Positions 1,132 to 37,565 of a DNA stretch of 37,852 bases are shown in pieces (position 1 is the first letter of the stretch; each line of letters opens with the position of its first letter). The notes beneath the pieces are model-generated. The model searched no databases. It was not told the origin of the DNA and saw only the letters and a program-made list of their open reading frames with translations. A program made the position numbers and the translations under genes. The DNA is from a virus (Duplodnaviria; Heunggongvirae; Uroviricota; Caudoviricetes), in the IMG/VR virus record IMGVR_UViG_2531839583_000010; one strand, given 5' to 3'.

Positions 1132-1503
1132 TCATAAGTACCGATATGATTGCGGGGCCGTTATGTTATCACCTAATGAACTTAGATGAAGCGGTTGATC
1201 ATAGATTTTTAAATTGCCAATTTCTATAGCAAAGGCTTTTTCTTTGCTATGAAAATATGAGTCAAAAAATTGTTTGCTGATACCTGCGTATTGGCTTGTT
1301 TTTTCCCATACAATACTTGGCTTGTCTTCTATAACGTCTGCAATGTCAAATTCAGCAACAACTTTACCGACAGGCATTGTTGAATAAATAACCACAGATT
1401 TTACATCCGGGTTTTTGAAAAGACCTTTCCTGAATTCAAACTTCTTTGTCCCATTAAGGATCTTTTCAACAAATTCAGGTTTTATTGACAATAATACTTT
1501 CAT
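1132..1503 (-). CDS. ASCH-domain (PUA-like fold) protein, cargo gene 3 of the cI-int cassette
   Basis: 123 aa; N-terminus LLSIKPEFVEKILNGTKKFEFRK resembles the ASCH signature (LSIkPeya..Il.GkKt.E.R); overlaps the upstream gene by 29 nt. Homology is recalled, not searched. Confidence 0.6.
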   Translation of the reverse strand: MKVLLSIKPEFVEKILNGTKKFEFRKGLFKNPDVKSVVIYSTMPVGKVVAEFDIADVIEDKPSIVWEKTSQYAGISKQFFDSYFHSKEKAFAIEIGNLKIYDQPLHLSSLGDNITAPQSYRYL

Positions 1504-2554
1504 CTACAGCACCAAGTTTAATTATATCGTCAAATTGCTTATCGGTTAATTTAACAACACCCCAACGGTTTTTAGGATTCAAACCAATTTCTTTAATTAG
1601 TTTAGCACGATTTATTCTTTTAGGTAAAGCTAGATTATATGTAAAACTAATAATGTAAGGGTATCTTCTTGTTTGATAAAATTTTTTCAATTCATTTTCA
1701 GAAAATACACTGTATCGTGCACAATATTGTATGAATTCATTTTCATTATGAAAAGAATCAATATATCTAATATCTTCAACTACACATAATGACGTTGCGA
1801 CAGAACGATAGTATGCTCTGTTCTCTTCGTCACTTGTTCTGTAAATAACTAAGATGTCATGTTTTTTTATTTTTTTTACATCATACATTCTACATATATA
1901 TATTTTTCTAATGCTATTAGCATGAGATACATCCGTGATTATATCTGGAGATTCAGTGACGAGTTTTGAATCAGGAAAAAGTTTTGTATGAAATTCAGGG
2001 TGTATTGACAATAGGTATTTATTCTCATTATTTTTATTATTTATATATGGGTAATCAGAAAGTATATCACCCGTGAGGTGATTTCTATTCATCTCTCTTA
2101 CTAAAACATTTTCTATACCATTTGCGGTTTTTTTTGTGCCATGAAGAATGAATCCATAAAGTTTGAATAGTTTTATTAGATATTCATGTTTTTCAAATAC
2201 AGTAACGTAAATATCATTAACTCTTTCTTTTAAAGCATGATCAAATATTTTTTTTAAAAAACGTTGCCCTCGTAATGTTTTTTTTGTATTGAACTTAAAG
2301 GTTCCAATTTTCAAATGTTTATGATTGATAATTGATGGGGTGACATCAGTTATTTTACCGAATTCAATTTTTAAATACATAAAACCATCAATGGTATTAT
2401 CGTCATTATAAAGCACATATGCTTTTTCTTCTGGATTAAGACTTTTTCTGTTGAACCATTCAATAAAACCGTGTTCATAGTCATTCTTTAACGAATCAAA
2501 AAATGTATCGTCAAAATTTACTTGACTGAATGGAATAAGTTTTAAATTTTCCAT
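1475..2554 (-). CDS. Hypothetical two-domain protein; C-terminal half has an ASCH-like motif, N-terminal half has weak GNAT-like features
   Basis: 359-aa ORF in an AT-rich island; C-terminal segment LLSIHPEFHTKLF...ILVIYRTSDEE echoes the neighbouring ASCH start; the N-terminal RGQRFLKKIFDHAL stretch only loosely resembles GNAT motif A. Confidence 0.5.
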   Translation of the reverse strand: MENLKLIPFSQVNFDDTFFDSLKNDYEHGFIEWFNRKSLNPEEKAYVLYNDDNTIDGFMYLKIEFGKITDVTPSIINHKHLKIGTFKFNTKKTLRGQRFLKKIFDHALKERVNDIYVTVFEKHEYLIKLFKLYGFILHGTKKTANGIENVLVREMNRNHLTGDILSDYPYINNKNNENKYLLSIHPEFHTKLFPDSKLVTESPDIITDVSHANSIRKIYICRMYDVKKIKKHDILVIYRTSDEENRAYYRSVATSLCVVEDIRYIDSFHNENEFIQYCARYSVFSENELKKFYQTRRYPYIISFTYNLALPKRINRAKLIKEIGLNPKNRWGVVKLTDKQFDDIIKLGAVDESIIVNKT

Positions 2555-2581: not shown

Positions 2582-3646
2582 TTATTTTCTATAGGTCCAA
2601 AGGTGAATAATTATATATATTACAATAGCTAAAATTGCCCCACCGATATAATATGTGCTTGTCGGTATAAATTTAAGAATAAAAGCAAAGGCAGCACCAT
2701 ATATCAAGTACGCAAAAATTTTACTGAATTTGGTTTTCGTGTTTTTAAACTTCACAACAACAGAGAAGTCATTTAGTGTTGTTTCATTATCATTAACAAT
2801 CTTCCAATGGTAAATCATAGGGTCGTGATCACCAAATGAAATACCTTTTTCGAAATATTTTGTCCATGTTTCAGACTCTAATATTCTACATCCTTTATAA
2901 CTTGAGCCAGATGCTGAACATTCATCAACAATATCTCTTATTATAAACAAATGTATTTTTAAAGGTGTGCAAGCGGCGCTCGCCAGAGTTGTAGCAATTT
3001 CTGAAGGTAGGTTTCTTTGTTCATTGATCCTAAAATCAATAATATCAGAACGCTCAATATTACTTTTGAGAAAGAGATCTTTTGGATAAAATGTTTTTAC
3101 TAAAACACCTATATCTTCATTGTTGAGTTTAACTCGAAATCTTAAATAATGTGGAGCATCCTCTGACGATAGGCAATCTTTTAGCTTGAAAACAATGAAG
3201 GTGCCATTATGTATTTTAGTTACCTTAACCCTACGATCAAGTTCGCCACCACTAAAGGTCAGATTTGTATTAACAACTAAATCACCTTTATTCGCAAGTT
3301 CTAATTTTGAATGTCTGACGTCTACTGTTTTTGTATTAATAAGATATTCATTAAAAACAGCTGTTACGAGATCTCGGCTTGACTCGAGATTTTTACTAAG
3401 ATCAGAAAAAAAACAATTTTCCTTCTCAAATGGTAAAAATATGCATATTGCACCATGATTTGCAATGGTGTCGTCATCAGGTTTTTTAAACGTAATACCA
3501 AAATCTAAATAACAAAATTTATGAGCACTTATATTCCAAAAATTTATGTGTAACTCATTAATAAAATTATTGCGTTCAGGGTTATAGGTCGAACTCGAAT
3601 TGCTCCTATAATCCCTACATCCCCAGATAGCAAAACTTTTTGACAT
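2582..3646 (-). CDS. Hypothetical protein with a large soluble N-domain and two C-terminal transmembrane helices
   Basis: 354-aa ORF; C-terminus IFAYLIYGAAFAFILKFI...YYIGGAILAIVIYIIIHLW has two hydrophobic helices; no recognised catalytic motif. Confidence 0.5.
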   Translation of the reverse strand: MSKSFAIWGCRDYRSNSSSTYNPERNNFINELHINFWNISAHKFCYLDFGITFKKPDDDTIANHGAICIFLPFEKENCFFSDLSKNLESSRDLVTAVFNEYLINTKTVDVRHSKLELANKGDLVVNTNLTFSGGELDRRVKVTKIHNGTFIVFKLKDCLSSEDAPHYLRFRVKLNNEDIGVLVKTFYPKDLFLKSNIERSDIIDFRINEQRNLPSEIATTLASAACTPLKIHLFIIRDIVDECSASGSSYKGCRILESETWTKYFEKGISFGDHDPMIYHWKIVNDNETTLNDFSVVVKFKNTKTKFSKIFAYLIYGAAFAFILKFIPTSTYYIGGAILAIVIYIIIHLWTYRK

Positions 3647-7065: not shown

Positions 7066-9480
7066 ATGAGTCATGACGATATGAGCAACTCTAGCGGCTT
7101 TAACGAGGCCGCTACAGCATTTTCATGGAACGGCCCGAAAAAGGCCATTAACCCTTATCTGGACCCGGCGGAAGTTGCGCCGGAGTCTGCACTTTTAAAC
7201 CTGATCACTCTGTACGCTGCCGATAATGAGCAGGAACAGCTGCGCCGCGATGCACTGAGTGAGCAGGTCTGGGAGCGTTATTTCTTTAATGAATCTCGTG
7301 ATCCTGTCCAGCGCGAAATGGAGCAGGATAAGCTCATTAGCCGGGCAAAGCTGGCGCATGAACAGCAGCGTTTTAACCCGGACATGGTCATTCTGGCGGA
7401 CGTCAGCGCCCAGCCCACCCATATTAGCAAGCCGCTGATGCAACGTATCGAATACTTCAGCAGCCTGGGCAGGCCAAAGGCTTATTCCCGCTATTTGCGT
7501 GAGACGATTAAGCCATGTCTGGAGCGACTGGATTGTGTACGTGACAGTCAGCTGTCTGCTTCTTTCCGTTTTATGGCAAGCCATCAAGGGCTGGAGGGCC
7601 TGCTGATCCTGCCTGAAATGAGTCAGGACCAGGTGAAACGCCTGTCCACCCTGGTAGCTGCGCATATGAGCATGTGCCTTGATGCAGCTTGTGGCGATTT
7701 GTATGCCACCGATGACGTTAAGCCAGAAGAAATCCGCAAGACATGGGAAAAGGTGGCGGCGGAAACCCTGCGTCTGGATGTCATCCCACCTGCGTTTGAG
7801 CAACTCCGTCGGAAAAGAAACCGCCGTAAACCCGTACCCTATGAACTCATTCCGGGTTCGCTGGCGCGTATGTTGTGCGCCGACTGGTGGTATCGGAAAT
7901 TATGGAAGATGCGTTGCGAATGGCGGGAAGAGCAGTTGCGTGCTGTCTGCCTGGTCAGCAAAAAAGCATCTCCCTATGTCAGCTATGAAGCCGTGATGCA
8001 TAAACGTGAGCAGCGCCGTAAGTCGCTGGAGTTTTTCCGTTCTCATGAACTGGTGAACGAAGACGGCGACACGCTGGACATGGAGGATGTGGTAAACGCC
8101 AGCAGCAGCAACCCTGCGCATCGCCGCAATGAGATGATGGCCTGTGTTAAAGGTCTGGAGCTTATCGCGGAAATGCGCGGTGACTGCGCCGTTTTCTATA
8201 CTATCACCTGTCCGTCACGTTTCCATTCCACGCTCAACAACGGCAGACCCAACCCGACCTGGACAAATGCGACGGTAAGACAAAGCAGCGATTATCTGGT
8301 CGGCATGTTTGCTGCATTTCGTAAGGCAATGCACAAAACCGGGTTGCGCTGGTATGGCGTGCGGGTGGCTGAGCCGCACCATGACGGTACTGTGCACTGG
8401 CATCTCATGTGCTTCATGCGTAAAAAAGACCGCCGCGCCATCACTGCATTACTGCGTAAGTTTGCCATCCGTGTAGACCGCGAGGAGCTGGGCAACAACA
8501 CGGGGCCACGCTTTAAGTCTGAGCTGATTAACCCGCGCAAAGGAACACCGACAAGCTACATCGCGAAATACATCAGTAAGAACATTGACGGGCGTGGTCT
8601 GGCTGGCGAGATCAGCAAGGAAACGGGTAAATCCCTGCGTGATAACGCCGAATACGTTAATGCCTGGGCGTCTCTGCATCGTGTTCAGCAGTTCCGCTTC
8701 TTTGGTATTCCGGGACGTCAGGCTTACCGTGAACTTCGCTTGCTGGCTGGTCAGGCGGCAAGGCAACAGGGGGACAAAAAAGCAGGTGCGCTGATACTGG
8801 ATGACCCGCGCCTTGATGCCATCCTGGCTGCTGCTGATGCTGGTTGTTTTGCCACCTACATCATGAAGCAGGGCGGCGTACTGGTTCCCCGTAAATATCA
8901 CCTTATCAGAACCGCTTATGAAATCAACGAAGAGCCGACCGCCTATGGCGATCACGGCATTCGTATTTATGGCATCTGGTCACCCATTGCAGAGGGCAAG
9001 ATCTGCACTCATGCAGTGAAGTGGAAAATGGTTCGTAAGGCCGTTGACGTTCAGGAGGCGGTAGCCGACCAGGGCGCTTGCGCCCCTTGGACTCGTGGCA
9101 ATAACTGTCCCCTTGCTGAAAATTTGTACCAACAAGGGAAAGACAAATCAGCTGATGGGGATACCAGAACGGATATCACCCGTATGGATGACAAGGAGTT
9201 GCACGATTACCTGCACAGTATGAACAAAAAAGAACGCCGGGAACTGGCTGCAAGGTTACGCCTGGTGAAACCGAAACGGCGTAGAGACTACAAACAGCGA
9301 ATTACAGACCATCAACGACAGCAGCTCGTCTATGAACTGAAGTCCAGAGGATTTGATGGCAGCGAGAAAGAGGTCGATTTACTCCTTCGCGGCGGCAGTA
9401 TTCCGTCAGGAGCAGGCCTGCGTATCTTCTATCGGAACCAGCGTTTGCAGGAAGATGATAAGTGGCGGGATCTGTATTAA
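7066..9480 (+). CDS. A: Replication initiation protein A (rolling-circle nickase, P2 gpA-like)
   Basis: 804-aa ORF downstream of the early genes, in the position and size of P2 gene A. Confidence 0.8.
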
Positions 9481-9573
9481 TTACGCGGGTTAACAATTCG
9501 TGCTCTTAATAATACCAGGCATATCAGGCTGATGAACGTAAAAAAAACGTTTTACATCAGTAAGATTATTATA

Positions 9574-9593
9574 TACTGTAAATATAAACAGTG
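9574..9593. promoter_or_regulatory. LexA (SOS) box CTGT-N8-ACAG
   Basis: tactgtaaatataaacagtg: CTGT at 9576-9579, 8-nt AT spacer, ACAG at 9588-9591; about 45 nt upstream of ORF 9635. Confidence 0.6.
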
Positions 9594-9634
9594 GTTATGT
9601 GTACAGTATTGCTTGTGGTGTCATAGGAGGAAAA

Positions 9635-9823
9635 ATGCAGGACTATTTTTTGGAGTCTTTGAAGCTCCAGCGCATTGATTTTTTTCTTAAGCTTGTAGCG
9701 GCTAGTGAGTGTAGTGATGAAGAGAAGGGGCTGGCTCTGCAGTGGGTTTCTGAATTGACTGATGAACTCATGGCAAAAATCAGAAGCCACGAATACAACC
9801 GCTCAATGGATGTCATCAGCTGA
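9635..9823 (+). CDS. Hypothetical protein, first ORF of the SOS-controlled tum-like module
   Basis: 62-aa ORF with GGAGG Shine-Dalgarno; directly downstream of the LexA box. Confidence 0.45.
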   Translation: MQDYFLESLKLQRIDFFLKLVAASECSDEEKGLALQWVSELTDELMAKIRSHEYNRSMDVIS

Positions 9824-9833
9824 GGTGACTTTT

Positions 9834-10067
9834 ATGCGCATTGAAATAATGATCGATAAAGAGCAGAAAATTAGCCAGTCTACCCTGGACGCCCTTGAAT
9901 CCGAGCTTTACCGCAATCTGCGCCCCCTGTATCCCAAAACGGTAATTCGTATCCGCAAAGGTAGCTCTAACGGTGTGGAACTGACCGGACTGCAACTGGA
10001 CGAAGAAAGAAAACAAGTGATGAAAATTATGCAGAAGGTGTGGGAAGACGACAGCTGGCTGCATTAA
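9834..10067 (+). CDS. DinI-like protein (Tum C-terminal-domain-like antirepressor module)
   Basis: MRIEIMIDKEQ...LDALESELYRNL...KIMQKVWEDDSW parallels E. coli DinI (MRIEVTIAK...EILQETWESADDW); GAGGTG Shine-Dalgarno upstream. Confidence 0.7.
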   Translation: MRIEIMIDKEQKISQSTLDALESELYRNLRPLYPKTVIRIRKGSSNGVELTGLQLDEERKQVMKIMQKVWEDDSWLH

Positions 10068-10572
10068 GAAACGTTGCTGGCGTCTGAACTTGCTTCTGGC
10101 GTCAGCAAGGTTGAATAACGAGCTGTGCGAGGCGTTAGCCATCTGATCAAAAGACATCAAATATCATATTGTATATCGTGGTCAAACGCTGGAAACAATC
10201 ATTCCCGGTCAGAGGGGCTTCTTTCAATGTCTAAAAGAGTGAGATAGAGGATACAGGATGGGAAGAGCTTATGATGATTGTTCTTGGATTGACTTGGAAT
10301 ATTTGATGTCCATTATCTAATGGACTTGGTCTTGATAGTTATCACGAAAGAGGAAGCCAACGTCATGTATTTGAAGAGTATCTCTTACCTTTTGATTAAT
10401 TATTGTCCAAGTTTTTCAAAAGCTTCTTATCTGGCGGTCGATACATGATTTACTGTTGGATATGGTATTTAAAATTAATCTTTACACTGTGGTATATGCA
10501 GAATAGGATATTATCAATACAATCAAACTGTTTTCATACGGTTGTTAATATTGCAATGTTATAGGTAATGTC

Positions 10573-11691
10573 ATGTATCTTTTCAAGTATTACCGTCCGG
10601 ACTTCTTCTTCGAGAAAGCTATTCGTTATAATGAATTATATTTTTCCGCTCCTGCGCAATTGAATGATCCTAATGATCTCAATATAGATTATCGTTTTGA
10701 TAATAAATTGAAATTATGAGATATTTTATTGCGTTCTCCTTGCGATAAATCCTATAAAAATTTGAGTCACATATTAGATTTGAGTAATTTGAAGATACAT
10801 AAGGGATTGAATCGTATTTTTAGAGGAAAAAAAATAAAAAGTAGCATTGAGTCATTAGATAGCCTGTTTGACTCACACGTTGATGAGATACGTAAGATCA
10901 TAAATGATGGTTTACTACCTATCAATGTGATTAATTCCGCTATTTATGGGAATATTCCTGAACCACGCCAATTTTTGGTCTCACTTTGCGAGAACAGTAT
11001 CAAAGAAAGGTTGTATAGGAAAATAGTTCCTGCAGTATTCAGTGTGTCATTTTCAGCTAATGCGTTAGATCGTATGATGTGGGCGCATTATGCTGCAGGC
11101 TTTAGTGGTTGTGTTGTGATTTATGAAACGCAGGATTTTAATATTAATGGCGTACCACATCCTGGAATGAAGTTAAGAGAAAATTTATTTTCATCAGATA
11201 AAATTAATTTTCCAGTTAAGCCAATAAAATATAGTAATCAAGCTAAAGAGGTTTCACTTCTAGACCCAAGCGCAAATGTTGCAGAGTTATTTTTAACTAA
11301 AAATAGATTTTGGAGATATGAAGCTGAATATCGAATGTTTATTCCAGAGGCAAATGCAGGAATAGGGAGTGAGCGGCATGTTCAAAGACACGTAAATCGA
11401 AATATTGGACATGTTTTTCATCATGATGCTAATGTTGTTAAAGGGATCATTTTTGGTCCTAGAATGTGTGAAATGAAAAAAGAAAGCATATGGAATTGTA
11501 TCAAGTCAAATATGGAGAATTCAAATTCAACAATATGTTATTTTTTTGACTCTGAGTTATCAGCATCAGGAAAGATTACTATTTCAAAAGGGCAACGAGC
11601 GGAAAAAATGAAAAATTTCCCTTTGTTCAGGAACAAGTTAAGTCAGACGGAAATGGCTAAAGTTTTGAAGGAAATTGGCATTACGAACTAA
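10573..11691 (+). pseudogene. DUF2971-like gene interrupted by an in-frame TGA (10717-10719)
   Basis: ATG 10573 encodes YLFKYYRPDFFFEKAIRYNELYFSAPAQLNDPND (DUF2971 N-motif as recalled); a TGA follows; the same frame continues to 11691 and contains MWAHYAAGFSGCVVIYE and RFWRYEAEYR (DUF2971 core motifs). The track ORF 10729-11691 starts at a TTG. Confidence 0.55.
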
Positions 11692-11756
11692 CCTAACAAC
11701 AGTGCATGCCTATGCTGCCTGAATTTGCATGACCGTTTGAGGATCGTTTTTGCTAA

Positions 11757-11781
11757 GGCCCGCCAGAACTGGCGGGCTTTT
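11757..11781 (+). terminator. Rho-independent terminator candidate
   Basis: ggcccgccag-aa-ctggcgggc followed by tttt; GC stem plus T-run downstream of the DUF2971-like gene. Confidence 0.6.
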
Positions 11782-11826
11782 GCGTGGATCAGGCACCTGC
11801 ATGAAAACCACTACACAAAGCGGGCA

Positions 11827-11845
11827 GGCGTGGCGGGGATACGAG
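11827..11845. other. Putative cos (cohesive end) site, ggcgtggcggggatacgag
   Basis: The first 13 nt match the recalled P2/186 cohesive end (GGCG[A/T]GGCGGGGA...); it sits in a short GC-rich island between two AT-rich cargo genes. Assigned from memory of the P2/186 cos sequences. Confidence 0.4.
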
Positions 11846-11978
11846 CGCGCGTTATGACAAATAGATGATTAGCCTGATTTATTTACAGCTGTATAAATGA
11901 TCACCTTGTAATTAGGTAAGTAATGTCTTCTATTATCATTGATTTGATAGGATTAATCTGTTTTTTGAGGATTAGAGG

Positions 11979-14315
11979 ATGATTGAAGAGGTAGTTATTG
12001 ACAAGGTAGGCTCATATAATGGCCCTACGCAGCTTTTACATGGACTTTCTAAATTTAACTATTTATATGGAGCTAATGGTGCAGGTAAAACAACTATAAG
12101 TAAAATTATTAATGACCCTGAACAATATCCAACATGTCCGATTAAATGGAAAAATAATATATCTTTAATAAGCTACGTATATAATAAAGATTTTGTTGAA
12201 AGAAATTTTAGTCAAGATAAAATTAAAGGTGTATTTACCCTTGGTAGCGATCTTAAGGAGGATGAAGAGAAACTAATATCTCTTAAAGAAGAAAAAAATA
12301 AGCTAATGGAATCTATTATAGCAAAGGAAAAGTTAATAGATGGTGGTGATAATGAATTAGGCGTTATTAAAAAAATCGAAGACCATGAAAAATCTTTTAA
12401 AGATTCATGTTGGAAGCAAAAAGTAAAACATGACAATGTGTTCTCAAAGGCTTTTGAGGGATTAAGGAATAGTAGTGAAAAATTTAAAGCCAGAGTGTTG
12501 GCTGAGTATGAAAATAATACATCAGAAGTTTGCTCAATAGCAGAGTTAATTGAGAAAGCAAAAATTGTTTTTTCTACTGAATTGACATCACATGTATCAA
12601 TTACAATTCCATCCTTCAATGGGATAGATGATATTTTGAGTAGGGAAGTTTGGAGTGAGCGTATCCTAGGGAAAAAAGACGTTAGTGTTTCAGACTTAAT
12701 TACAATGCTCAATAACAGTGATTGGGTTAAGGAGGGTTTAACATATTTCAGTAAATCTAATCCCAAGTGCCCATTCTGCCAGCAGGATGTAAATGATAAT
12801 ATATTTGATAATCTTTCATCATATTTTGATAAAACATATGAGTTAAAAAAAAGAGAAATCGATGCATTGGTTTTACAATATGAATATCAACTTAATAATA
12901 TCTTGAAGGCGATAGATGATATAAGGGCGATTAAATCTCCATTCATAAATTATGAAGTGTTTGAGGATAAGGCTAAGATAGTATTATCTGAATTAAACAA
13001 GAATTTTGAATTGGCAAAAAATAAACGCAATTTTTTAAGTGAATCAGTTCATTTTAGTGACTTAAGTGAAGTTGTTGATGATTTTATTTCTTTTTTGAAT
13101 GATTCAAATCTATTGATAGATAATAATAACAAAATACATAGTAATAGAAAGGTAGAGGCTAGTAATCTTTCTAAGCAGATATGGGCATATATCGTAAAGG
13201 TGGAGTTAAAGTCTGAAATAACTTCTTACCGTAGCAAATCTGATAAGTTTAATAGGACGTTACAAGGACTTAAATCTGGGATAGAAGAAGACAAAAAGAA
13301 GTTAATGTTAAATACTTCGGCTATTGAGGCAATTGAGTCTAATAAAACCAGTACTCTTCCAACTATTACAAAAATTAACAAGATTCTGGACTCTTATGGC
13401 TTCAAAAATTTTTACTTAAAACCCTCCGAAGATAAAAAGCATTATATGATAGTGAGAGATAGTGGAGATAATGCTCGTACAACCCTTAGTGAGGGAGAAA
13501 AGACATTTATCACTTTTTTGTACTTTTATAGCCTTGTTAGAGGGAGTGATAATGCATCAGGTGTTTTAGATGATCGTGTTGTAGTATTTGATGATCCAAT
13601 TTCAAGTTTAGATAGTGATATTCTGTTTATTGTAAGTTCGTTGATTAAAGATTTAATGGAGGATGTTCGTAAGGATGAAGGAAATATTAAGCAAATTATA
13701 TTCCTTACTCATAATATTTATTTTCATAAAGAGTTGACTTTTAATACCAAAAGATCCGGTAATCAAGCAATGAAAGAGGAGACTTTTTGGATTGTAAGGA
13801 AAAAAGGGAAGGTTTCATATCTTGAAAAGTGCGAATCAAACCCAATAAAAACGTCTTATGATTTGCTCTGGTGCGAATTGAGAAGAACAGACATTAATAA
13901 TAATACTATACAAAATACAATGCGAAGGATTTTGGAGAATTACTTTAAGATATTAGGTGGGATGGATATTAGGAAGCTTGAGTGTCATTTTTATGGTGAT
14001 GAAAAAATCATATTTAAATCTTTAGTGTCATGGATTAATGATGGTTCCCATTTTGCAGGTGATGATCTTTATATGAATTTAGATACGGAGTCTGTGCAAA
14101 AATATTTAATTGTTTTTCAGAAGATATTTGAATGTAGTGAGCATACTGCCCATTACAAAATGATGATGGGTGAGTTTTATAAACCGTTAAATGAGTCACT
14201 TCATCTACAAGATGAGTTTGATATAGATGATAGTGCGAATGATGAGTATGCTTCGTCAAAAATTGAGATAAAAGATGGAATAAACACATCTCTACATAGC
14301 AACACATATTTGTAA
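11979..14315 (+). CDS. RloC-like ABC/AAA_13-type ATPase with coiled-coil CxxC hook and C-terminal HEPN-like (R-x4-H) domain; candidate anticodon-nuclease-type defense protein
   Basis: Walker A GANGAGKTT (aa 31-39, nt 12069-12095); CPFC (aa 264-267, nt 12768-12779) inside a K/E-rich predicted coiled coil; LSEGEK signature (aa 503-508); Walker B/D-loop VVVFDDPISSLD (aa 534-545); RKLECH (aa 665-670, nt 13971-13988). AT-rich. Confidence 0.6.
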   Translation: MIEEVVIDKVGSYNGPTQLLHGLSKFNYLYGANGAGKTTISKIINDPEQYPTCPIKWKNNISLISYVYNKDFVERNFSQDKIKGVFTLGSDLKEDEEKLISLKEEKNKLMESIIAKEKLIDGGDNELGVIKKIEDHEKSFKDSCWKQKVKHDNVFSKAFEGLRNSSEKFKARVLAEYENNTSEVCSIAELIEKAKIVFSTELTSHVSITIPSFNGIDDILSREVWSERILGKKDVSVSDLITMLNNSDWVKEGLTYFSKSNPKCPFCQQDVNDNIFDNLSSYFDKTYELKKREIDALVLQYEYQLNNILKAIDDIRAIKSPFINYEVFEDKAKIVLSELNKNFELAKNKRNFLSESVHFSDLSEVVDDFISFLNDSNLLIDNNNKIHSNRKVEASNLSKQIWAYIVKVELKSEITSYRSKSDKFNRTLQGLKSGIEEDKKKLMLNTSAIEAIESNKTSTLPTITKINKILDSYGFKNFYLKPSEDKKHYMIVRDSGDNARTTLSEGEKTFITFLYFYSLVRGSDNASGVLDDRVVVFDDPISSLDSDILFIVSSLIKDLMEDVRKDEGNIKQIIFLTHNIYFHKELTFNTKRSGNQAMKEETFWIVRKKGKVSYLEKCESNPIKTSYDLLWCELRRTDINNNTIQNTMRRILENYFKILGGMDIRKLECHFYGDEKIIFKSLVSWINDGSHFAGDDLYMNLDTESVQKYLIVFQKIFECSEHTAHYKMMMGEFYKPLNESLHLQDEFDIDDSANDEYASSKIEIKDGINTSLHSNTYL

Positions 14316-14326
14316 TTTTATTACAA

Positions 14327-14356
14327 TTGCCAGTAGCAACAATACGGTACTGGCAA
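14327..14356. terminator. Hairpin between convergent ATPase gene and Q (ttgccagta-N12-tactggcaa)
   Basis: Perfect 9-bp inverted repeat with a 12-nt loop in the 49-bp gap between convergent genes; AT-rich stem, so strength is uncertain. Confidence 0.35.
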
Positions 14357-14364
14357 CTAATATT

Positions 14365-15396
14365 TTAGTTAAGCTCATATGGAGAAAATTCTATAAGTTT
14401 TTCCCCGAGCCATGCATTAATTTCTCTAAATCGTTTTTGCAAAGGAATTAATTCATTTATCACAAAAACCTTACTAGCCTTCTCCACATCCCCAAACCCC
14501 CCGACATTATTAGGCATAATCCCCATCATTTGCGGTGGAACGCGGTGTGCCGCCATCATGTCATCGCGACTAACATTTTTGATATTCAGAAACTCATCCT
14601 TCGCTGCGACTTCTGATAACGGGATAATCTGAAGCCCGTCCTTTTTGCCGTTAGGTGAGTACATAAACAGGTTGCGGAAGTTGCCCGGCCCTTTGGCGCT
14701 TTTCATCGCATTGCGGAGGTTGTTCACATCCTCCTGGTTTTGCGCGGCATCGGTCATGTACATGATAAAGCCCGCATGACTGCCGTTAATGTAATACTTG
14801 CGACGGAACAGCGTGGCGGACTCGTTGAGCAGGGCTGACGGAATGGCAGAAAGATAACCGGGCAGGCCGTAGATCTCCTGATTAATATCCGGTTCCATCA
14901 GATGAAAAATGCTGCCTTTCGTGAACTGATACGGCTGGGGTGTCATACCGTATTGCACAAACCAGTAGGTATCCAGGTCTAATCCGCGTCGGGTGTATTT
15001 TGCCAGCGCAGGTTCAAGGGCGATCACTTCACCGAAGCGGTTCGTGCGTTTCTCCAGATAGGCGTTGCCAAATACCAGATAGTCCTGCACAAAACGCGAA
15101 AAAGCCTGCTGGCTGAGCAGAGGATGAGGGATATAGGTACTGGTCAGAATGTTGCACTTTACTGCAATCGGGGAACTGTGATGCACGGCAGCGCGGAAGG
15201 TGCGCGCCAGTCCGTCAAAGCTGACGGGCGGCTCATACCAACGGTCCATCTGTACGCATTCCACATAGTCCAGTAATTCTCGGCGGTCCAGAACAGGAAC
15301 GGGATCGCCGAAGCTGAATGCTTCGGCTGAAGTTTGGTTTTTATGCTGGATCTGATTCGTCGCCGCAGTGCGGTTTTTCTTATTCTTTCCCATCAA
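14365..15396 (-). CDS. Q: Portal protein (P2 gpQ-like)
   Basis: 343 aa (P2 Q is 344 aa); adjacent to and co-oriented with the terminase large subunit. Confidence 0.9.
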   Translation of the reverse strand: MMGKNKKNRTAATNQIQHKNQTSAEAFSFGDPVPVLDRRELLDYVECVQMDRWYEPPVSFDGLARTFRAAVHHSSPIAVKCNILTSTYIPHPLLSQQAFSRFVQDYLVFGNAYLEKRTNRFGEVIALEPALAKYTRRGLDLDTYWFVQYGMTPQPYQFTKGSIFHLMEPDINQEIYGLPGYLSAIPSALLNESATLFRRKYYINGSHAGFIMYMTDAAQNQEDVNNLRNAMKSAKGPGNFRNLFMYSPNGKKDGLQIIPLSEVAAKDEFLNIKNVSRDDMMAAHRVPPQMMGIMPNNVGGFGDVEKASKVFVINELIPLQKRFREINAWLGEKLIEFSPYELN

Positions 15397-35232: not shown

Positions 35233-36918
35233 TTATCCTAATCCTGGCCATACCATGACGATGATTGTCCCTGCCAGCGTCAGCAGGACGTTGGCGATTG
35301 CATAGGTGCCCGCATAGCCCAGCGCCGGGATGTTACTGCGAGCTGTATCACTGATGATCTCCATTGCCGGCGCGCAGGTACGTGCGCCCATCATTGCGCC
35401 GAACAACAGCGCGCGGTTCATTCGCAATACATAAGCACCGAACAAGAAACAGATAACCACGGGCACCAGACTGACAATCAATCCGGCAATCAACATCTGA
35501 CCGCCAATCGCGCCCAGGCCGTTATTAATACCGCTACCGGCGCTCAGACCAACGCCTGCCATAAACACCATCAAGCCGAACTCTTTCACCATGCTTAATG
35601 CACCCTGCGGAATGTAACCGAAGGTCGGGTGGTTAGCACGCATAAAGCCCAGCATAATTCCGGCGAATAACAACCCGGCAGCGTTCCCCATGCCGAAACT
35701 GAATGTGCTGAACTGGAAGGTGATCATCCCGATCATCAGCCCAATAACAAAGAAGGCGCAAAATGCCAGCAGGTCAGTGACCTGGCTGTGAATCGAGATA
35801 AAGCCGATGCGATCGGCGATGGTTTTTACGCGACGGGCATCACCGCTGACTTGTAAAACGTCACCTTTGTTAAGCACGACGTTGTCATCTATCGGCATCT
35901 CAATCTGGCTACGAATGACGCGGTTAAGGAAGCAACCGTGATCGGTCAACTTCAGTTGTGCGAGACGTTTACCTACAGCGTTATGGTTTTTAACGACCAC
36001 TTCTTCAGTGACGATACGCATGTCGAGAAGGTCACGATCGAAAACTTCTTTACCGTTACGGAAGCTGGGATCGAGTCGGGCATGGGCGTCGGGATAGCCT
36101 ACCAACGCTATTTCATCGCCCATTTGTAGCACGGCATCACCGTCTGGATTTGCCAGAATCCCGTTACGTCGAATACGTTCAATGTAGCAGCCGGTTTGTC
36201 GATAAATACCCAGTTCACGCAGATTTTTGCCGTCGGTCCAGGCCACCAGCTCCGGGCCGACGCGATAGGCGCGGATCACCGGTAAATAAACCTTACGGTT
36301 GGCATCAGTGTCCAGGCCACGTTCGCGGGCGATTTGCTGGGCGCTGGTCTGTAAGTCCTGATGCTGCAATTTCGGCAAGTAACGCGCACCAACAATCAAA
36401 CTCACCAGACCGATTAAATAGGTTAAGGCATACCCGAGGCTCAGATTATCCAGTGCCAGTGAGAGCTGCCTGCTTTCCATGCCGGAATGACGCAGTGTAT
36501 CGCCAGCACCGACCAGAACCGGTGTCGACGTCATAGAGCCTGCTAACATACCGGCCGTCAGGCCAATATCCCAGCCAAACAGCTTACCTAACCCTAAGGC
36601 GATCACCAGCGCACTGCCAACCATCACCAGTGCTAACATTAGGTAATTTTTCCCATCGCGAAAAAAAATGGAAAAAAAGTTCGGTCCGGCTTCAACCCCA
36701 ACACAGAAAATAAACAGCATAAAGCCAAGATTAAGCGCATCGGTGTTAATGCTGAAATGTTGTTGGCCTAATAACAGCGATACGACTAAAACGCCAATGG
36801 AATTACCCAGTTGAATCGAACCAAGTCGTAACTTTCCGAGACATAGCCCAAGCGCGAGGACCACAAATAATAACAGAATGTAATTCCCATTTAACAATTC
36901 GGCGACGTTTATATTCAC
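35233..36918 (-). CDS. ybjL: Putative transporter YbjL (AAE-family membrane protein with central TrkA-C-like domains)
   Basis: 561 aa; multi-TM N- and C-halves around a soluble middle; matches recalled E. coli YbjL and the ybjL-ybjM-grxA neighbourhood. Confidence 0.8.
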
Positions 36919-37187: not shown

Positions 37188-37565
37188 GTGAAACATAAAC
37201 AACGTTGGGCGGGGGCAATCTGCTGTTTTGTCCTCTTCATTGTGGTGTGCCTTTTTCTGGCGACGCACATGAAAGGCGCTTTTCGGGCTGCCGGGCATCC
37301 TGAAATCGGCTTGCTATTTTTCATTCTTCCTGGAGCAGTCGCCAGCTTCTTTTCACAGCGTAGAGAAGTCCTGAAACCTCTGTTTGGCGCAATGCTGGCG
37401 GCACCCTGTTCGATGCTCATTATGCGGCTGTTTTTTTCACCGACGCGCTCATTCTGGCAAGAGCTGGCATGGTTATTAAGTGCGGTGTTCTGGTGTGCGC
37501 TGGGGGCACTGTGTTTCTTATTTATCAGTAGTTTGTTTAAACCACAGCACAGAAAAAATCAGTAA
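37188..37565 (+). CDS. ybjM: Inner membrane protein YbjM
   Basis: 125 aa, four hydrophobic helices; lies between ybjL and grxA as in E. coli. Confidence 0.65.
   Translation: MKHKQRWAGAICCFVLFIVVCLFLATHMKGAFRAAGHPEIGLLFFILPGAVASFFSQRREVLKPLFGAMLAAPCSMLIMRLFFSPTRSFWQELAWLLSAVFWCALGALCFLFISSLFKPQHRKNQ

What the first reader, a model, noticed from the sequence alone, without database searches (positions are those of the whole stretch)
10573..11691. DUF2971-like cargo gene split by a single in-frame TGA
Conserved-looking N-terminal (FKYYRPD...ELYFSAPAQLNDPND) and core (MWAHYAAGFSGCVVIYE, RFWRYEAEYR) motifs lie in the same reading frame on either side of TGA 10717-10719. Either the gene is a recently inactivated pseudogene, or the stop is a sequencing error, or a truncated product from the TTG at 10729 lacks the N-terminal motif. 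The gene occupies the P2 old/tin-equivalent slot between the tum-like module and cos, which is a known defense hotspot in P2-like phages.
Basis: partly seen in the sequence, partly recalled or inferred. Interest (0 to 1): 0.6.

Follow-up and report, generated by a model that had tools for sequence, protein, structure and literature searches.

The report
Nonsense-broken DUF2971 defence-candidate gene in prophage
A cargo gene of a P2/186-like prophage, predicted to encode an ADP-ribosyltransferase-like anti-phage candidate, has been knocked out by one G-to-A change that turns an invariant tryptophan codon into a stop; this is an ordinary, recent pseudogene.

Summary
ATG 10573 and stop 11689-11691 bound a 1119-nt frame interrupted only by TGA 10717-10719. 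A TTG at 10729 opens a 320-codon ORF.

All 26 complete E. coli genomes with this gene have TGG there; the ten intact copies I read from E. coli genomes and IMG/VR contigs are each 372 codons at the same prophage position. Trp49 is invariant in 41 homologues down to about 30% identity, and the alignment runs straight across the stop. The change is therefore TGG to TGA, W49*.

The 48 residues upstream hold 17 of the family's 49 invariant positions, so the TTG product should be inactive.

The gene lies between the DinI/Tum-like gene and cos, the slot of P2 old/tin and 186 orf97.

The window is the E. coli 180050 draft. A sequencing error is unlikely: the same products occur on other contigs, and an unrelated sample has the same TGA on a different allele.

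That recurrence is the only unusual point. I found no sign of recoding. Interest is low.

The parts
10573..11691 (+). Whole DUF2971 / PDC-S31 gene, 372 codons plus stop, now a pseudogene through one internal stop
   Evidence: It is colinear and equal in length with intact 1119-nt CDSs in seven E. coli genomes. GC is 30-36% against 51-56% in the phage backbone.
10717..10719 (+). Premature TGA; the ancestral codon is TGG (Trp49), changed by G>A at 10719
   Evidence: Searches show that all intact alleles have TGG. W49 is invariant in 41 homologues.
10573..10719 (+). N-terminal fragment ORF of 48 aa, deposited as EMW89959.1. It holds predicted strands 2-7, 21-25 and 39-41 and helix 11-18, and 16 of the family's invariant residues (17 of 49 counting W49)
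10729..11691 (+). C-terminal fragment ORF of 320 aa with a TTG start and only a weak GAGA Shine-Dalgarno-like element 7 nt upstream. It holds the Pfam DUF2971 core (MWAHYA...YEAEYR) but not the N-terminal strands
   Evidence: (21.7 bits, just under the cut-off of 22).
10827..10834 (+). A8 homopolymer inside the gene, near which frameshifted alleles occur in other assemblies
   Evidence: (P0086 frameshifts at RGKK).
11758..11781 (+). GC-rich hairpin followed by TTTT, corresponding in position to the phage 186 t95b terminator upstream of cos. It ends the DUF2971 cassette
   Evidence: Read directly. Its 3' part aligns to the 186 right end, and the 186 annotation is. The consensus terminator scan did not call it.
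11827..11845 (.). Homologue of the cos cohesive end (GGCGTGGCGGGGATACGAG), inside a spacer (about 11701-11900) conserved in more than 1200 E. coli genomes and in P2-like phages
9834..10067 (+). DinI-like (Tum-like) gene forming the left border of the slot
   Evidence: (PF06183, 1.2e-22).
11979..14315 (+). Intact neighbouring cargo gene (AAA_13 ATPase, PADLOC PDC-S06) in the second slot between cos and the portal gene. It is independent of DUF2971
   Evidence: 2.2e-163; 1.6e-266. Other genomes carry different genes in this slot.
14365..15393 (-). Portal gene (P2 gpQ homologue) forming the right border of the hotspot

Best explanation
The locus is a recently inactivated allele of a solitary cargo gene carried by a P2/186-like prophage of E. 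coli 180050.

The intact gene encodes a 372-aa DUF2971 protein, PADLOC candidate PDC-S31. Its predicted core is an ADP-ribosyltransferase fold of the DarT/Tpt1 type, interrupted by a large helical insert and followed by a C-terminal alpha/beta domain. By inference, the intact protein is a self-contained anti-phage (abortive-infection type) effector that uses NAD+ to modify a nucleic acid or protein target once infection relieves autoinhibition.

In this window a single G>A transition at 10719 converted the invariant Trp49 codon TGG to TGA. Translation from ATG 10573 now ends after 48 residues. Any product started at TTG 10729 lacks the first three predicted strands and 16 invariant residues, so the enzyme is expected to be dead.

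The prophage keeps two other intact cargo modules: AAA_13/PDC-S06 and PDC-M11.

What is shown: the mutation, its polarity, conservation of the lost segment, family membership, fold similarity and genomic position. What is inferred: enzymatic activity, the defence role, and loss of function.
For: - Single internal stop in a frame otherwise identical in length to the intact gene.
- TGG in all 26 complete E. coli genomes carrying the gene, with seven loci read base by base, and in four IMG/VR phage contigs.
- W49 is invariant, and 17 of 49 invariant columns lie in residues 1-49, across 41 homologues of 364-395 aa.
- Intact alleles evolve under purifying selection, with dN/dS 0.13-0.20.
- The inactivation is recent: only 9 nt separate the window from the closest intact allele, and besides the stop the window lineage has 3 missense and 2 synonymous changes.
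- Family: PF11185 in all 41 homologues, and PDC-S31 at 3e-23.
- Literature: DUF2971 is predicted to be a DarT-like ART (PMC12522546), and the DUF2971 protein Aristaios is an experimentally validated single-gene antiphage system (PMC11381338).
- Solitary, mobile cargo: the downstream neighbour varies among AIPR/AbiU-like, AAA_13, ShosA-like DprA and DUF4145 genes. Homologues sit alone in a lambdoid prophage, an ICE and a Pseudomonas chromosome.
- Position in the gpA-gpQ hotspot next to cos (PMC9122126).
- The stop is reproducible. The two fragment proteins are on record on 3 and 5 contigs respectively, from NCBI and independent Logan reassemblies. The same TGA occurs in an unrelated sample, ERR12304353.
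Against: - No reads were available, so a base-call error in the 2013 draft cannot be formally excluded.
- Loss of function is inferred, not measured. UGA is the leakiest stop in E. coli K-12 (about 2-4% readthrough by Trp-tRNA, PMC10570021), and readthrough here would rebuild the exact wild-type protein.
- The same W49* on a second allele background is unexpected for a purely random knockout, given 183 possible one-step nonsense changes, 19 of them transitions.
- No member of this enterobacterial subfamily has been tested for defence; PDC systems are untested candidates (bioRxiv 10.1101/2024.01.29.577857).
Confidence: 0.82

Rival explanations
1. Leaky-stop attenuated allele. The UGA at a Trp codon is read through at a low rate by Trp-tRNA(CCA), regenerating exactly the wild-type 372-aa protein at about 0.1-4% of normal level. 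This would be a tolerated, down-tuned version of a potentially toxic effector rather than a null.
For: - UGA readthrough by Trp-tRNA is about 2% at 37 C and 4% at 25 C in K-12 reporters (PMC10570021).
- TGG>TGA is the only nonsense change whose near-cognate readthrough restores the native residue.
- The identical change is seen on two allele backgrounds that differ at 25 other positions in the gene. Under this idea only the 4 Trp codons qualify.
Against: - TGA at this codon is absent from all 26 complete E. coli genomes and 4 IMG/VR contigs. A degenerate pattern for it found nothing in JGI metagenomes and only one chance hit in GTDB species representatives.
- There is no readthrough-promoting or SECIS-like structure downstream (z -1.4), no Rfam hit, and no suppressor tRNA in the prophage.
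- Natural isolates generally terminate at UGA better than K-12 (my own knowledge).
- Two occurrences are compatible with coincidence once transition bias and database size are taken into account.
Confidence: 0.07
2. Sequencing or assembly error. The real genome has TGG and the gene is intact.
For: The window is a 2013 draft assembly (AQEH01000055.1). All finished genomes have TGG. A single-base difference is the simplest kind of error.
Against: - The exact 320-aa and 48-aa products are on record on several contigs, from NCBI and from independent Logan reassemblies.
- An unrelated run, ERR12304353, shows the same A on a different allele. There, 10698C and 10719A lie only 21 nt apart.
- The site is not in a homopolymer longer than 3 nt.
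- The window allele carries five further private substitutions, so it is a genuinely distinct lineage.
Confidence: 0.05
3. Functional split gene. The 48-aa peptide and a 320-aa protein reinitiated at TTG 10729, 10 nt after the stop, associate non-covalently to rebuild the enzyme.
For: The stop falls at the boundary between the N-terminal strand module (residues 1-41) and the first helix of the large insert (46-54) in the model. A start codon with a weak GAGA element follows closely.
Against: - None of about 60 full-length homologues is split.
- TTG with a poor Shine-Dalgarno element predicts very low reinitiation.
- W49 itself and residues 50-52 would be missing.
- The lost strands are predicted core elements of the fold, so stable complementation would be exceptional.
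Confidence: 0.03
4. The two ORFs are unrelated small genes that happen to abut in the same frame.
For: None, beyond their separate annotation in the draft.
Against: Alignment is continuous across the stop in 41 homologues and in seven near-identical single CDSs.
Confidence: 0.01

Closest known systems
Intact E. coli orthologue WP_021542067.1 (strain ARL09/232), with related alleles WP_000280510.1 and WP_193329113.1
   Same: Same 1119-nt gene at the same prophage position after the DinI-like gene and before the cos spacer. It differs from the window by 9 nt.
   Different: It has TGG at codon 49 and is annotated as one 372-aa CDS. Its downstream second-slot gene is an AIPR/AbiU-like gene rather than AAA_13.
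PADLOC phage defence candidate PDC-S31
   Same: The repaired or orthologous protein matches four PDC-S31 HMMs, the best at 3.1e-23 over residues 3-312. It is a single-gene cassette among other defence candidates.
   Different: PDC systems are bioinformatic candidates without experimental validation (bioRxiv 10.1101/2024.01.29.577857). The window copy is broken.
Aristaios (Lactococcus plasmid pUCCL641_199, 316 aa; PMC11381338)
   Different: It comes from a Gram-positive plasmid and is shorter. The enterobacterial subfamily has a roughly 100-residue helical insert and a distinct C-terminal domain.
DarT of DarTG toxin-antitoxin systems (7yk3, 7omv, 8baq)
   Different: Identity is 8-12%. There is no DarG macrodomain partner or any other conserved neighbour. 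The protein is much larger. Foldseek and sequence profiles do not detect the relationship.
P2 old/tin and phage 186 orf97
   Same: They occupy the same cos-proximal accessory slot at the right end of the phage genome. These are known phage-exclusion genes: PMC9122126 for old/tin, and the 186 orf97 annotation reads 'expression from plasmid blocks 186 infection'.
   Different: The proteins are unrelated; only the position and the presumed role are shared.

Membership tests
Pfam DUF2971 (PF11185) | Match to the family HMM at or above the gathering score (22 bits) | tested here: met
   The intact orthologue scores 22.4 bits. All 41 aligned homologues match at E <= 1, the best at E 1.1e-8. The window's 320-aa fragment alone scores 21.7 bits, just under the cut-off.
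PADLOC PDC-S31 (single-gene defence candidate) | Match to PDC-S31 HMMs, and a solitary gene without an obligatory partner | tested here: met
   One search gives 3.1e-23, 1.4e-16, 1.7e-14 and 2.9e-5. Neighbours differ in every context examined.
PADLOC PDC-S31 / Aristaios-type defence | Protection against phage infection | not testable with these tools
   This needs plaque assays with TGG and TGA alleles.
Aristaios (PMC11381338) | Detectable sequence homology to pUCCL641_199 | not tested
Only the shared Pfam family and fold prediction are known.
ADP-ribosyltransferase superfamily (DarT/Tpt1-like) | ART fold | tested here: met
ADP-ribosyltransferase superfamily (DarT/Tpt1-like) | Catalytic triad-like motifs (H/R in strand 1, Y or S-x-S, catalytic E/ExE) | tested here: inconclusive
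   Invariant residues are R8, S157-x-S159-x-S161, Y173 and E250-x-E252. No residue-level superposition was available to assign them to the motifs.
ADP-ribosyltransferase superfamily (DarT/Tpt1-like) | NAD+-dependent transfer activity | not testable with these tools
   A biochemical assay is needed.
DarTG toxin-antitoxin | Adjacent DarG macrodomain antitoxin | tested here: not met
   No macrodomain gene or other conserved partner flanks the gene in the window or in eight other contexts.
Programmed recoding (selenocysteine or conserved readthrough) | TGA conserved in homologues, plus a downstream recoding structure | tested here: not met
   All homologues have TGG/Trp. The downstream fold has z -1.4, Rfam gave no hit, and the prophage has no tRNA.
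Unitary pseudogene (nonsense allele) | An otherwise colinear frame with a premature stop at a codon that is sense in all orthologues | tested here: met
P2-like gpA-gpQ defence hotspot (PMC9122126) | Located between the replication gene A and the portal gene Q, next to cos, with low-GC variable content | tested here: met
   gpA is at 7066-9480 (PF05840), the portal gene at 14365-15393 and cos at 11827. GC is 30-36%, and content varies among genomes.

The most novel reading that the evidence does not exclude
W49-UGA may not be a dead allele. It could be a recurrently selected 'dimmer': near-cognate Trp-tRNA readthrough of UGA regenerates the exact wild-type ADP-ribosyltransferase-like effector at about 1% of normal dosage. 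That would make an otherwise costly or autotoxic prophage defence gene tolerable while keeping it one transition away from full strength. The identical change on two allele backgrounds would then reflect selection rather than coincidence.
Probability: 0.06. Interest if true: 0.5.

Novelty: new member of a known kind. Interest (0 to 1): 0.2.

Why it matters
Taken as it stands, the finding matters little. It is one strain-specific nonsense allele of a gene family that is already catalogued (Pfam DUF2971, PADLOC PDC-S31), in a hotspot that is already well described.

It has modest value in three ways:
- It is a concrete example of a defence-candidate pseudogene in a P2-like hotspot. A recent survey found such pseudogenes to be rare, about 2% of P2 pseudogenes (PMC13586616).
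- It provides a natural null or attenuated allele, paired with intact alleles 9 nt away, for testing whether this untested enterobacterial DUF2971 subfamily is a defence or toxic ADP-ribosyltransferase.
- The same stop on two allele backgrounds hints that carrying the intact gene may be costly.

Tried and rejected
- **Selenocysteine or programmed readthrough.** Rejected. The downstream RNA fold is unremarkable (z -1.4), Rfam gave no hit at E <= 1 over 9000-15000, and homologues encode Trp.
- **Prophage-borne suppressor tRNA.** None found.
- **More TGA alleles.**
  - The exact 41-mer in GTDB species representatives gave 0 hits.
  - A degenerate E. coli-type pattern in JGI metagenomes gave 0.
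  - A protein-motif-based degenerate pattern ending in TGA gave one hit in genome contigs, which is a chance match antisense to an EF-G gene in a Spirochaetia MAG. The same pattern gave 0 in metagenomes and 0 in IMG/VR.
  - The TGG version found 4 intact phage copies, so the pattern does detect real homologues.
- **Other structure and sequence searches.** Foldseek against PDB and BFVD gave nothing at E <= 0.001. The AFDB library was unavailable. A sequence profile against PDB gave only noise.
- **Phage collection.** megablast against the INPHARED phages found no copy of the gene itself, only the cos spacer.
- **Three possible hidden TGA alleles.** Three E2-like complete genomes showed one mismatch fewer than expected in the 81-nt probe. 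I checked them, and all are TGG.
- **Promoter scan.** Promoter-like sites are not enriched over shuffles (11 found against 8.9 +/- 2.6). The site at 10481-10509 is only a candidate.
- **dN/dS on the window lineage.** 3 non-synonymous to 2 synonymous changes is too few to show relaxed selection.

Full report
**1. What is in the sequence**

Reading 10300-11900, the ORF list and a straight translation confirm the description.
- ATG is at 10573, an in-frame TGA at 10717-10719, a TTG at 10729 and the terminal TAA at 11689-11691.
- The 1119-nt frame contains one internal stop.
- The opposite strand has no ORF longer than 52 aa in this interval.
- The segment is AT-rich, with GC 30-36% against 51-56% in the flanking phage genes. 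This is typical of acquired cargo.

**2. Where the window comes from**

An exact look-up of the two fragment proteins identifies the source as E. coli 180050, draft contig AQEH01000055.1.
- Locus L006 from that contig is identical to window 573-20719.
- The 48-aa fragment is deposited as EMW89959.1, 'hypothetical protein EC180050_0912'.

**3. One gene, broken by one base**

megablast against 5,426 complete E. coli genomes finds the gene in 27.
- I read seven loci in detail. Each has a single CDS of exactly 1119 nt, annotated 'DUF2971 domain-containing protein', with a protein accession and no pseudogene flag.
- Base-by-base comparison shows 9 differences from the closest allele (ARL09/232), 23-26 from the E2-type alleles and 181 from a divergent ETEC allele. 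Every one of them has TGG at codon 49.
- An 81-nt probe centred on the stop matches 26 genomes. The mismatch counts are those expected if all carry G at 10719. The three ambiguous cases were checked directly.
- Four IMG/VR phage contigs also carry intact 372-codon copies with TGG.

The event is therefore G>A at 10719, TGG>TGA, W49*.

**4. How conserved is what was lost**

They are 364-395 aa apart from one of 458 aa, cover 91-100% of the query and go down to about 30% identity. They come from Enterobacterales and Pseudomonas.

In an alignment of 41 of them (A2):
- The alignment is continuous across codon 49, and W49 is invariant.
- 17 of the 49 invariant columns lie in residues 1-49, which is only 13% of the length. 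They are F4, K5, R8, Y19, N20, E21, Y23, F24, S25, L30, N31, D32, P33, D35, L36, F42 and W49.

Pairwise dN/dS among intact alleles is 0.13-0.20, so the full-length protein is maintained by selection elsewhere.

Besides the stop, the window lineage has three private missense changes (F211I, R273H, I281V) and two synonymous ones. That is too few to show relaxed constraint, but it is consistent with a recent knockout.

**5. What the intact protein is**

- Pfam: DUF2971. The orthologue scores 22.4 bits against a cut-off of 22, and all 41 homologues match at E <= 1, the best at 1e-8.
- PADLOC: four PDC-S31 models match, the best at 3e-23. PDC systems are untested candidates derived by guilt-by-embedding (bioRxiv 10.1101/2024.01.29.577857).
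- Structure: an AlphaFold2 model of the 97%-identical representative P0001, built with the 41-sequence alignment, is confident (pLDDT 92.1, pTM 0.85).
- Foldseek (PDB and BFVD) and a PDB sequence profile found nothing significant. The fold assignment is therefore moderate, not strong.

The assignment agrees with two papers. DUF2971 was predicted to be a DarT/AbiGi-like ART with large helical inserts and an ExE motif (PMC12522546). The Lactococcus DUF2971 protein Aristaios is a validated single-gene antiphage system with an ART-like model (PMC11381338).

In the model, residues 2-7, 21-25 and 39-41 are strands and 11-18 is a helix. W49 sits in helix 46-54, at the start of the long helical insert. 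The invariant E250-x-E252 lies in the Pfam core. The truncation thus removes three predicted strands and the invariant R8. I infer that neither the 48-aa peptide nor a 320-aa product from TTG 10729 can be active. That start has a weak GAGA element and a TTG codon.

**6. Genomic setting**

The order on the + strand is:
- gpA-type replication endonuclease, 7066-9480
- a 62-aa ORF
- DinI-like gene, 9834-10067
- the DUF2971 cassette
- a spacer conserved in more than 1,200 E. coli genomes and in P2-like phages of Klebsiella, Salmonella and Yersinia (window about 11701-11900)
- an intact AAA_13 ATPase, PADLOC PDC-S06, 11979-14315
- the portal gene on the - strand, 14365-15393

The spacer contains a terminator-like hairpin (11758-11781) and the cos homologue. 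The 19-nt cohesive end of phage 186 has its best match in the whole window at 11827, with the first 13 nt identical. The 186 right end plus cos aligns to 11761-11840.

This is the slot of P2 old/tin and of 186 orf97, whose annotation reads 'expression from plasmid blocks 186 infection'. It lies inside the gpA-gpQ hotspot of PMC9122126.

The second slot, between cos and the portal gene, varies independently: AIPR/AbiU-like, AAA_13, ShosA-like DprA or DUF4145/PD-T7-4-like genes occupy it. More distant homologues sit alone in a lambdoid prophage, an ICE and a Pseudomonas chromosome. DUF2971 is therefore a stand-alone module with no antitoxin-like partner, and it is not a DarTG system.

**7. Error, recoding or real allele**

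No reads were available. Two lines of evidence argue against an error.
- The exact 320-aa and 48-aa products are on record on 3 and 5 contigs respectively, from NCBI and Logan reassemblies.
- A 1,685-bp contig from an unrelated run, ERR12304353 (L008), carries the same TGA on the E2-type allele. It differs from E2 by 3 nt in all and from the window at 25 other positions within the gene. Its 320-aa product is on two Logan contigs.

Several checks argue against recoding.
- The downstream RNA shows no notable structure.
- There is no Rfam match.
- The prophage carries no tRNA.
- No TGA appears at this codon in species-representative genomes, JGI metagenomes or IMG/VR.

**8. The one odd point**

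The same nonsense change on two backgrounds is not expected from random decay. The gene offers 183 one-step nonsense mutations, 19 of them transitions and 11 of those before the ExE.

However, I could only have found a second case with this particular stop, because the look-up was by the exact 48-aa product, and the database holds hundreds of copies. Other disrupted forms also exist, including frameshifts near the A8 run at 10827-10834 and N-terminally truncated calls.

Recurrence could be coincidence, a very short recombination tract (under 78 bp), or selection against an expensive gene. The most interesting possibility that remains open is that UGA at a Trp codon is leaky. K-12 reporters show about 2-4% readthrough by Trp-tRNA (PMC10570021). 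Readthrough would yield a low dose of exactly wild-type protein. I rate this at about 6-7%.

**9. Verdict**

This is a recent W49* nonsense allele of a known but experimentally uncharacterised ART-like defence candidate, in a known prophage hotspot. It is an ordinary finding. Defence pseudogenes are reported to be uncommon in P2-like hotspots (PMC13586616), which makes it a minor curiosity and a convenient natural control for functional tests.

Noticed in passing
L008 (Logan ERR12304353 contig, 1685 bp), equivalent to window 10143-11827: An unrelated sample carries the identical TGA at codon 49 on the E2-type allele. That allele has 25 other differences from the window within the gene, and the contig differs from strain E2 by only 3 nt in all. 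The same nonsense change has therefore arisen, or been transferred, twice.
   Followed up: partly
L007 (Logan DRR148239 contig), which ends at window 10716: A 32-kb contig from another run, with a window-like sequence in this region, stops 2-3 nt before the polymorphic base. This may mark an assembly-graph branch, meaning mixed alleles at 10719 in that sample, or it may be coincidence.
   Followed up: no
window 10827-10834 (A8 run in the gene), and cluster members P0083, P0085, P0086, P0068, P0070 and P0073: Other assemblies hold differently disrupted versions of this gene: frameshifts near the A8 run and elsewhere, and N-terminally truncated calls. I could not tell whether these are real decay or homopolymer sequencing errors.
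   Followed up: partly
window 11701-11900: The roughly 150-200-bp segment between the two cargo genes is conserved at 88-93% in more than 1,200 E. coli genomes and in P2-like phages of Klebsiella, Salmonella and Yersinia. It holds a terminator-like hairpin (11758-11781) and the cos homologue at 11827. The gpA-gpQ hotspot is therefore really two independent slots, one on each side of cos.
   Followed up: yes
window 11979-14315 (+): An intact 778-aa AAA_13 ATPase (Pfam 2e-163; PADLOC PDC-S06 1.6e-266, with weaker similarity to LmuB, PrrC and AriA) occupies the slot between cos and the portal gene. Its GC is about 30%. Strain E2 carries the same gene in that slot.
   Followed up: partly
window 1132-2554 (-), and 2582-3646 (-): A third cargo locus lies between the integrase and the CI repressor. 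It is a two-gene PADLOC candidate, PDC-M11: component A is 359 aa (1e-133) and component B is a 123-aa ASCH-domain protein (2e-48). Next to it is a 354-aa ORF with no Pfam or PADLOC match.
   Followed up: partly
window 35233-36918 (-) and 37188-37565 (+): The right flank is host DNA: a permease with Asp-Al_Ex and TrkA_C domains, and ybjM. The prophage's right end therefore lies between about 34.7 and 35.2 kb.
   Followed up: no
window 11203, 11390 and 11413: The window lineage has three private missense changes (F211I, R273H, I281V) and two private synonymous changes (11173, 11241) downstream of the stop. A partial GenBank protein, HDY2838277.1 (P0074), shares this allele.
   Followed up: partly
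L024 (E. coli NS-NP030) positions 1-124: In this genome the prophage replication endonuclease gene is flagged as a pseudogene with an internal stop, while the adjacent DUF2971 gene is intact. This is the reverse of the situation in the window.
   Followed up: no
L015 (Spirochaetia MAG SABI01000325.1) 2030-2086: The only genome-contig hit to the degenerate NDPND..Y.F..TGA pattern is a chance match, antisense within an EF-G gene.
   Followed up: yes
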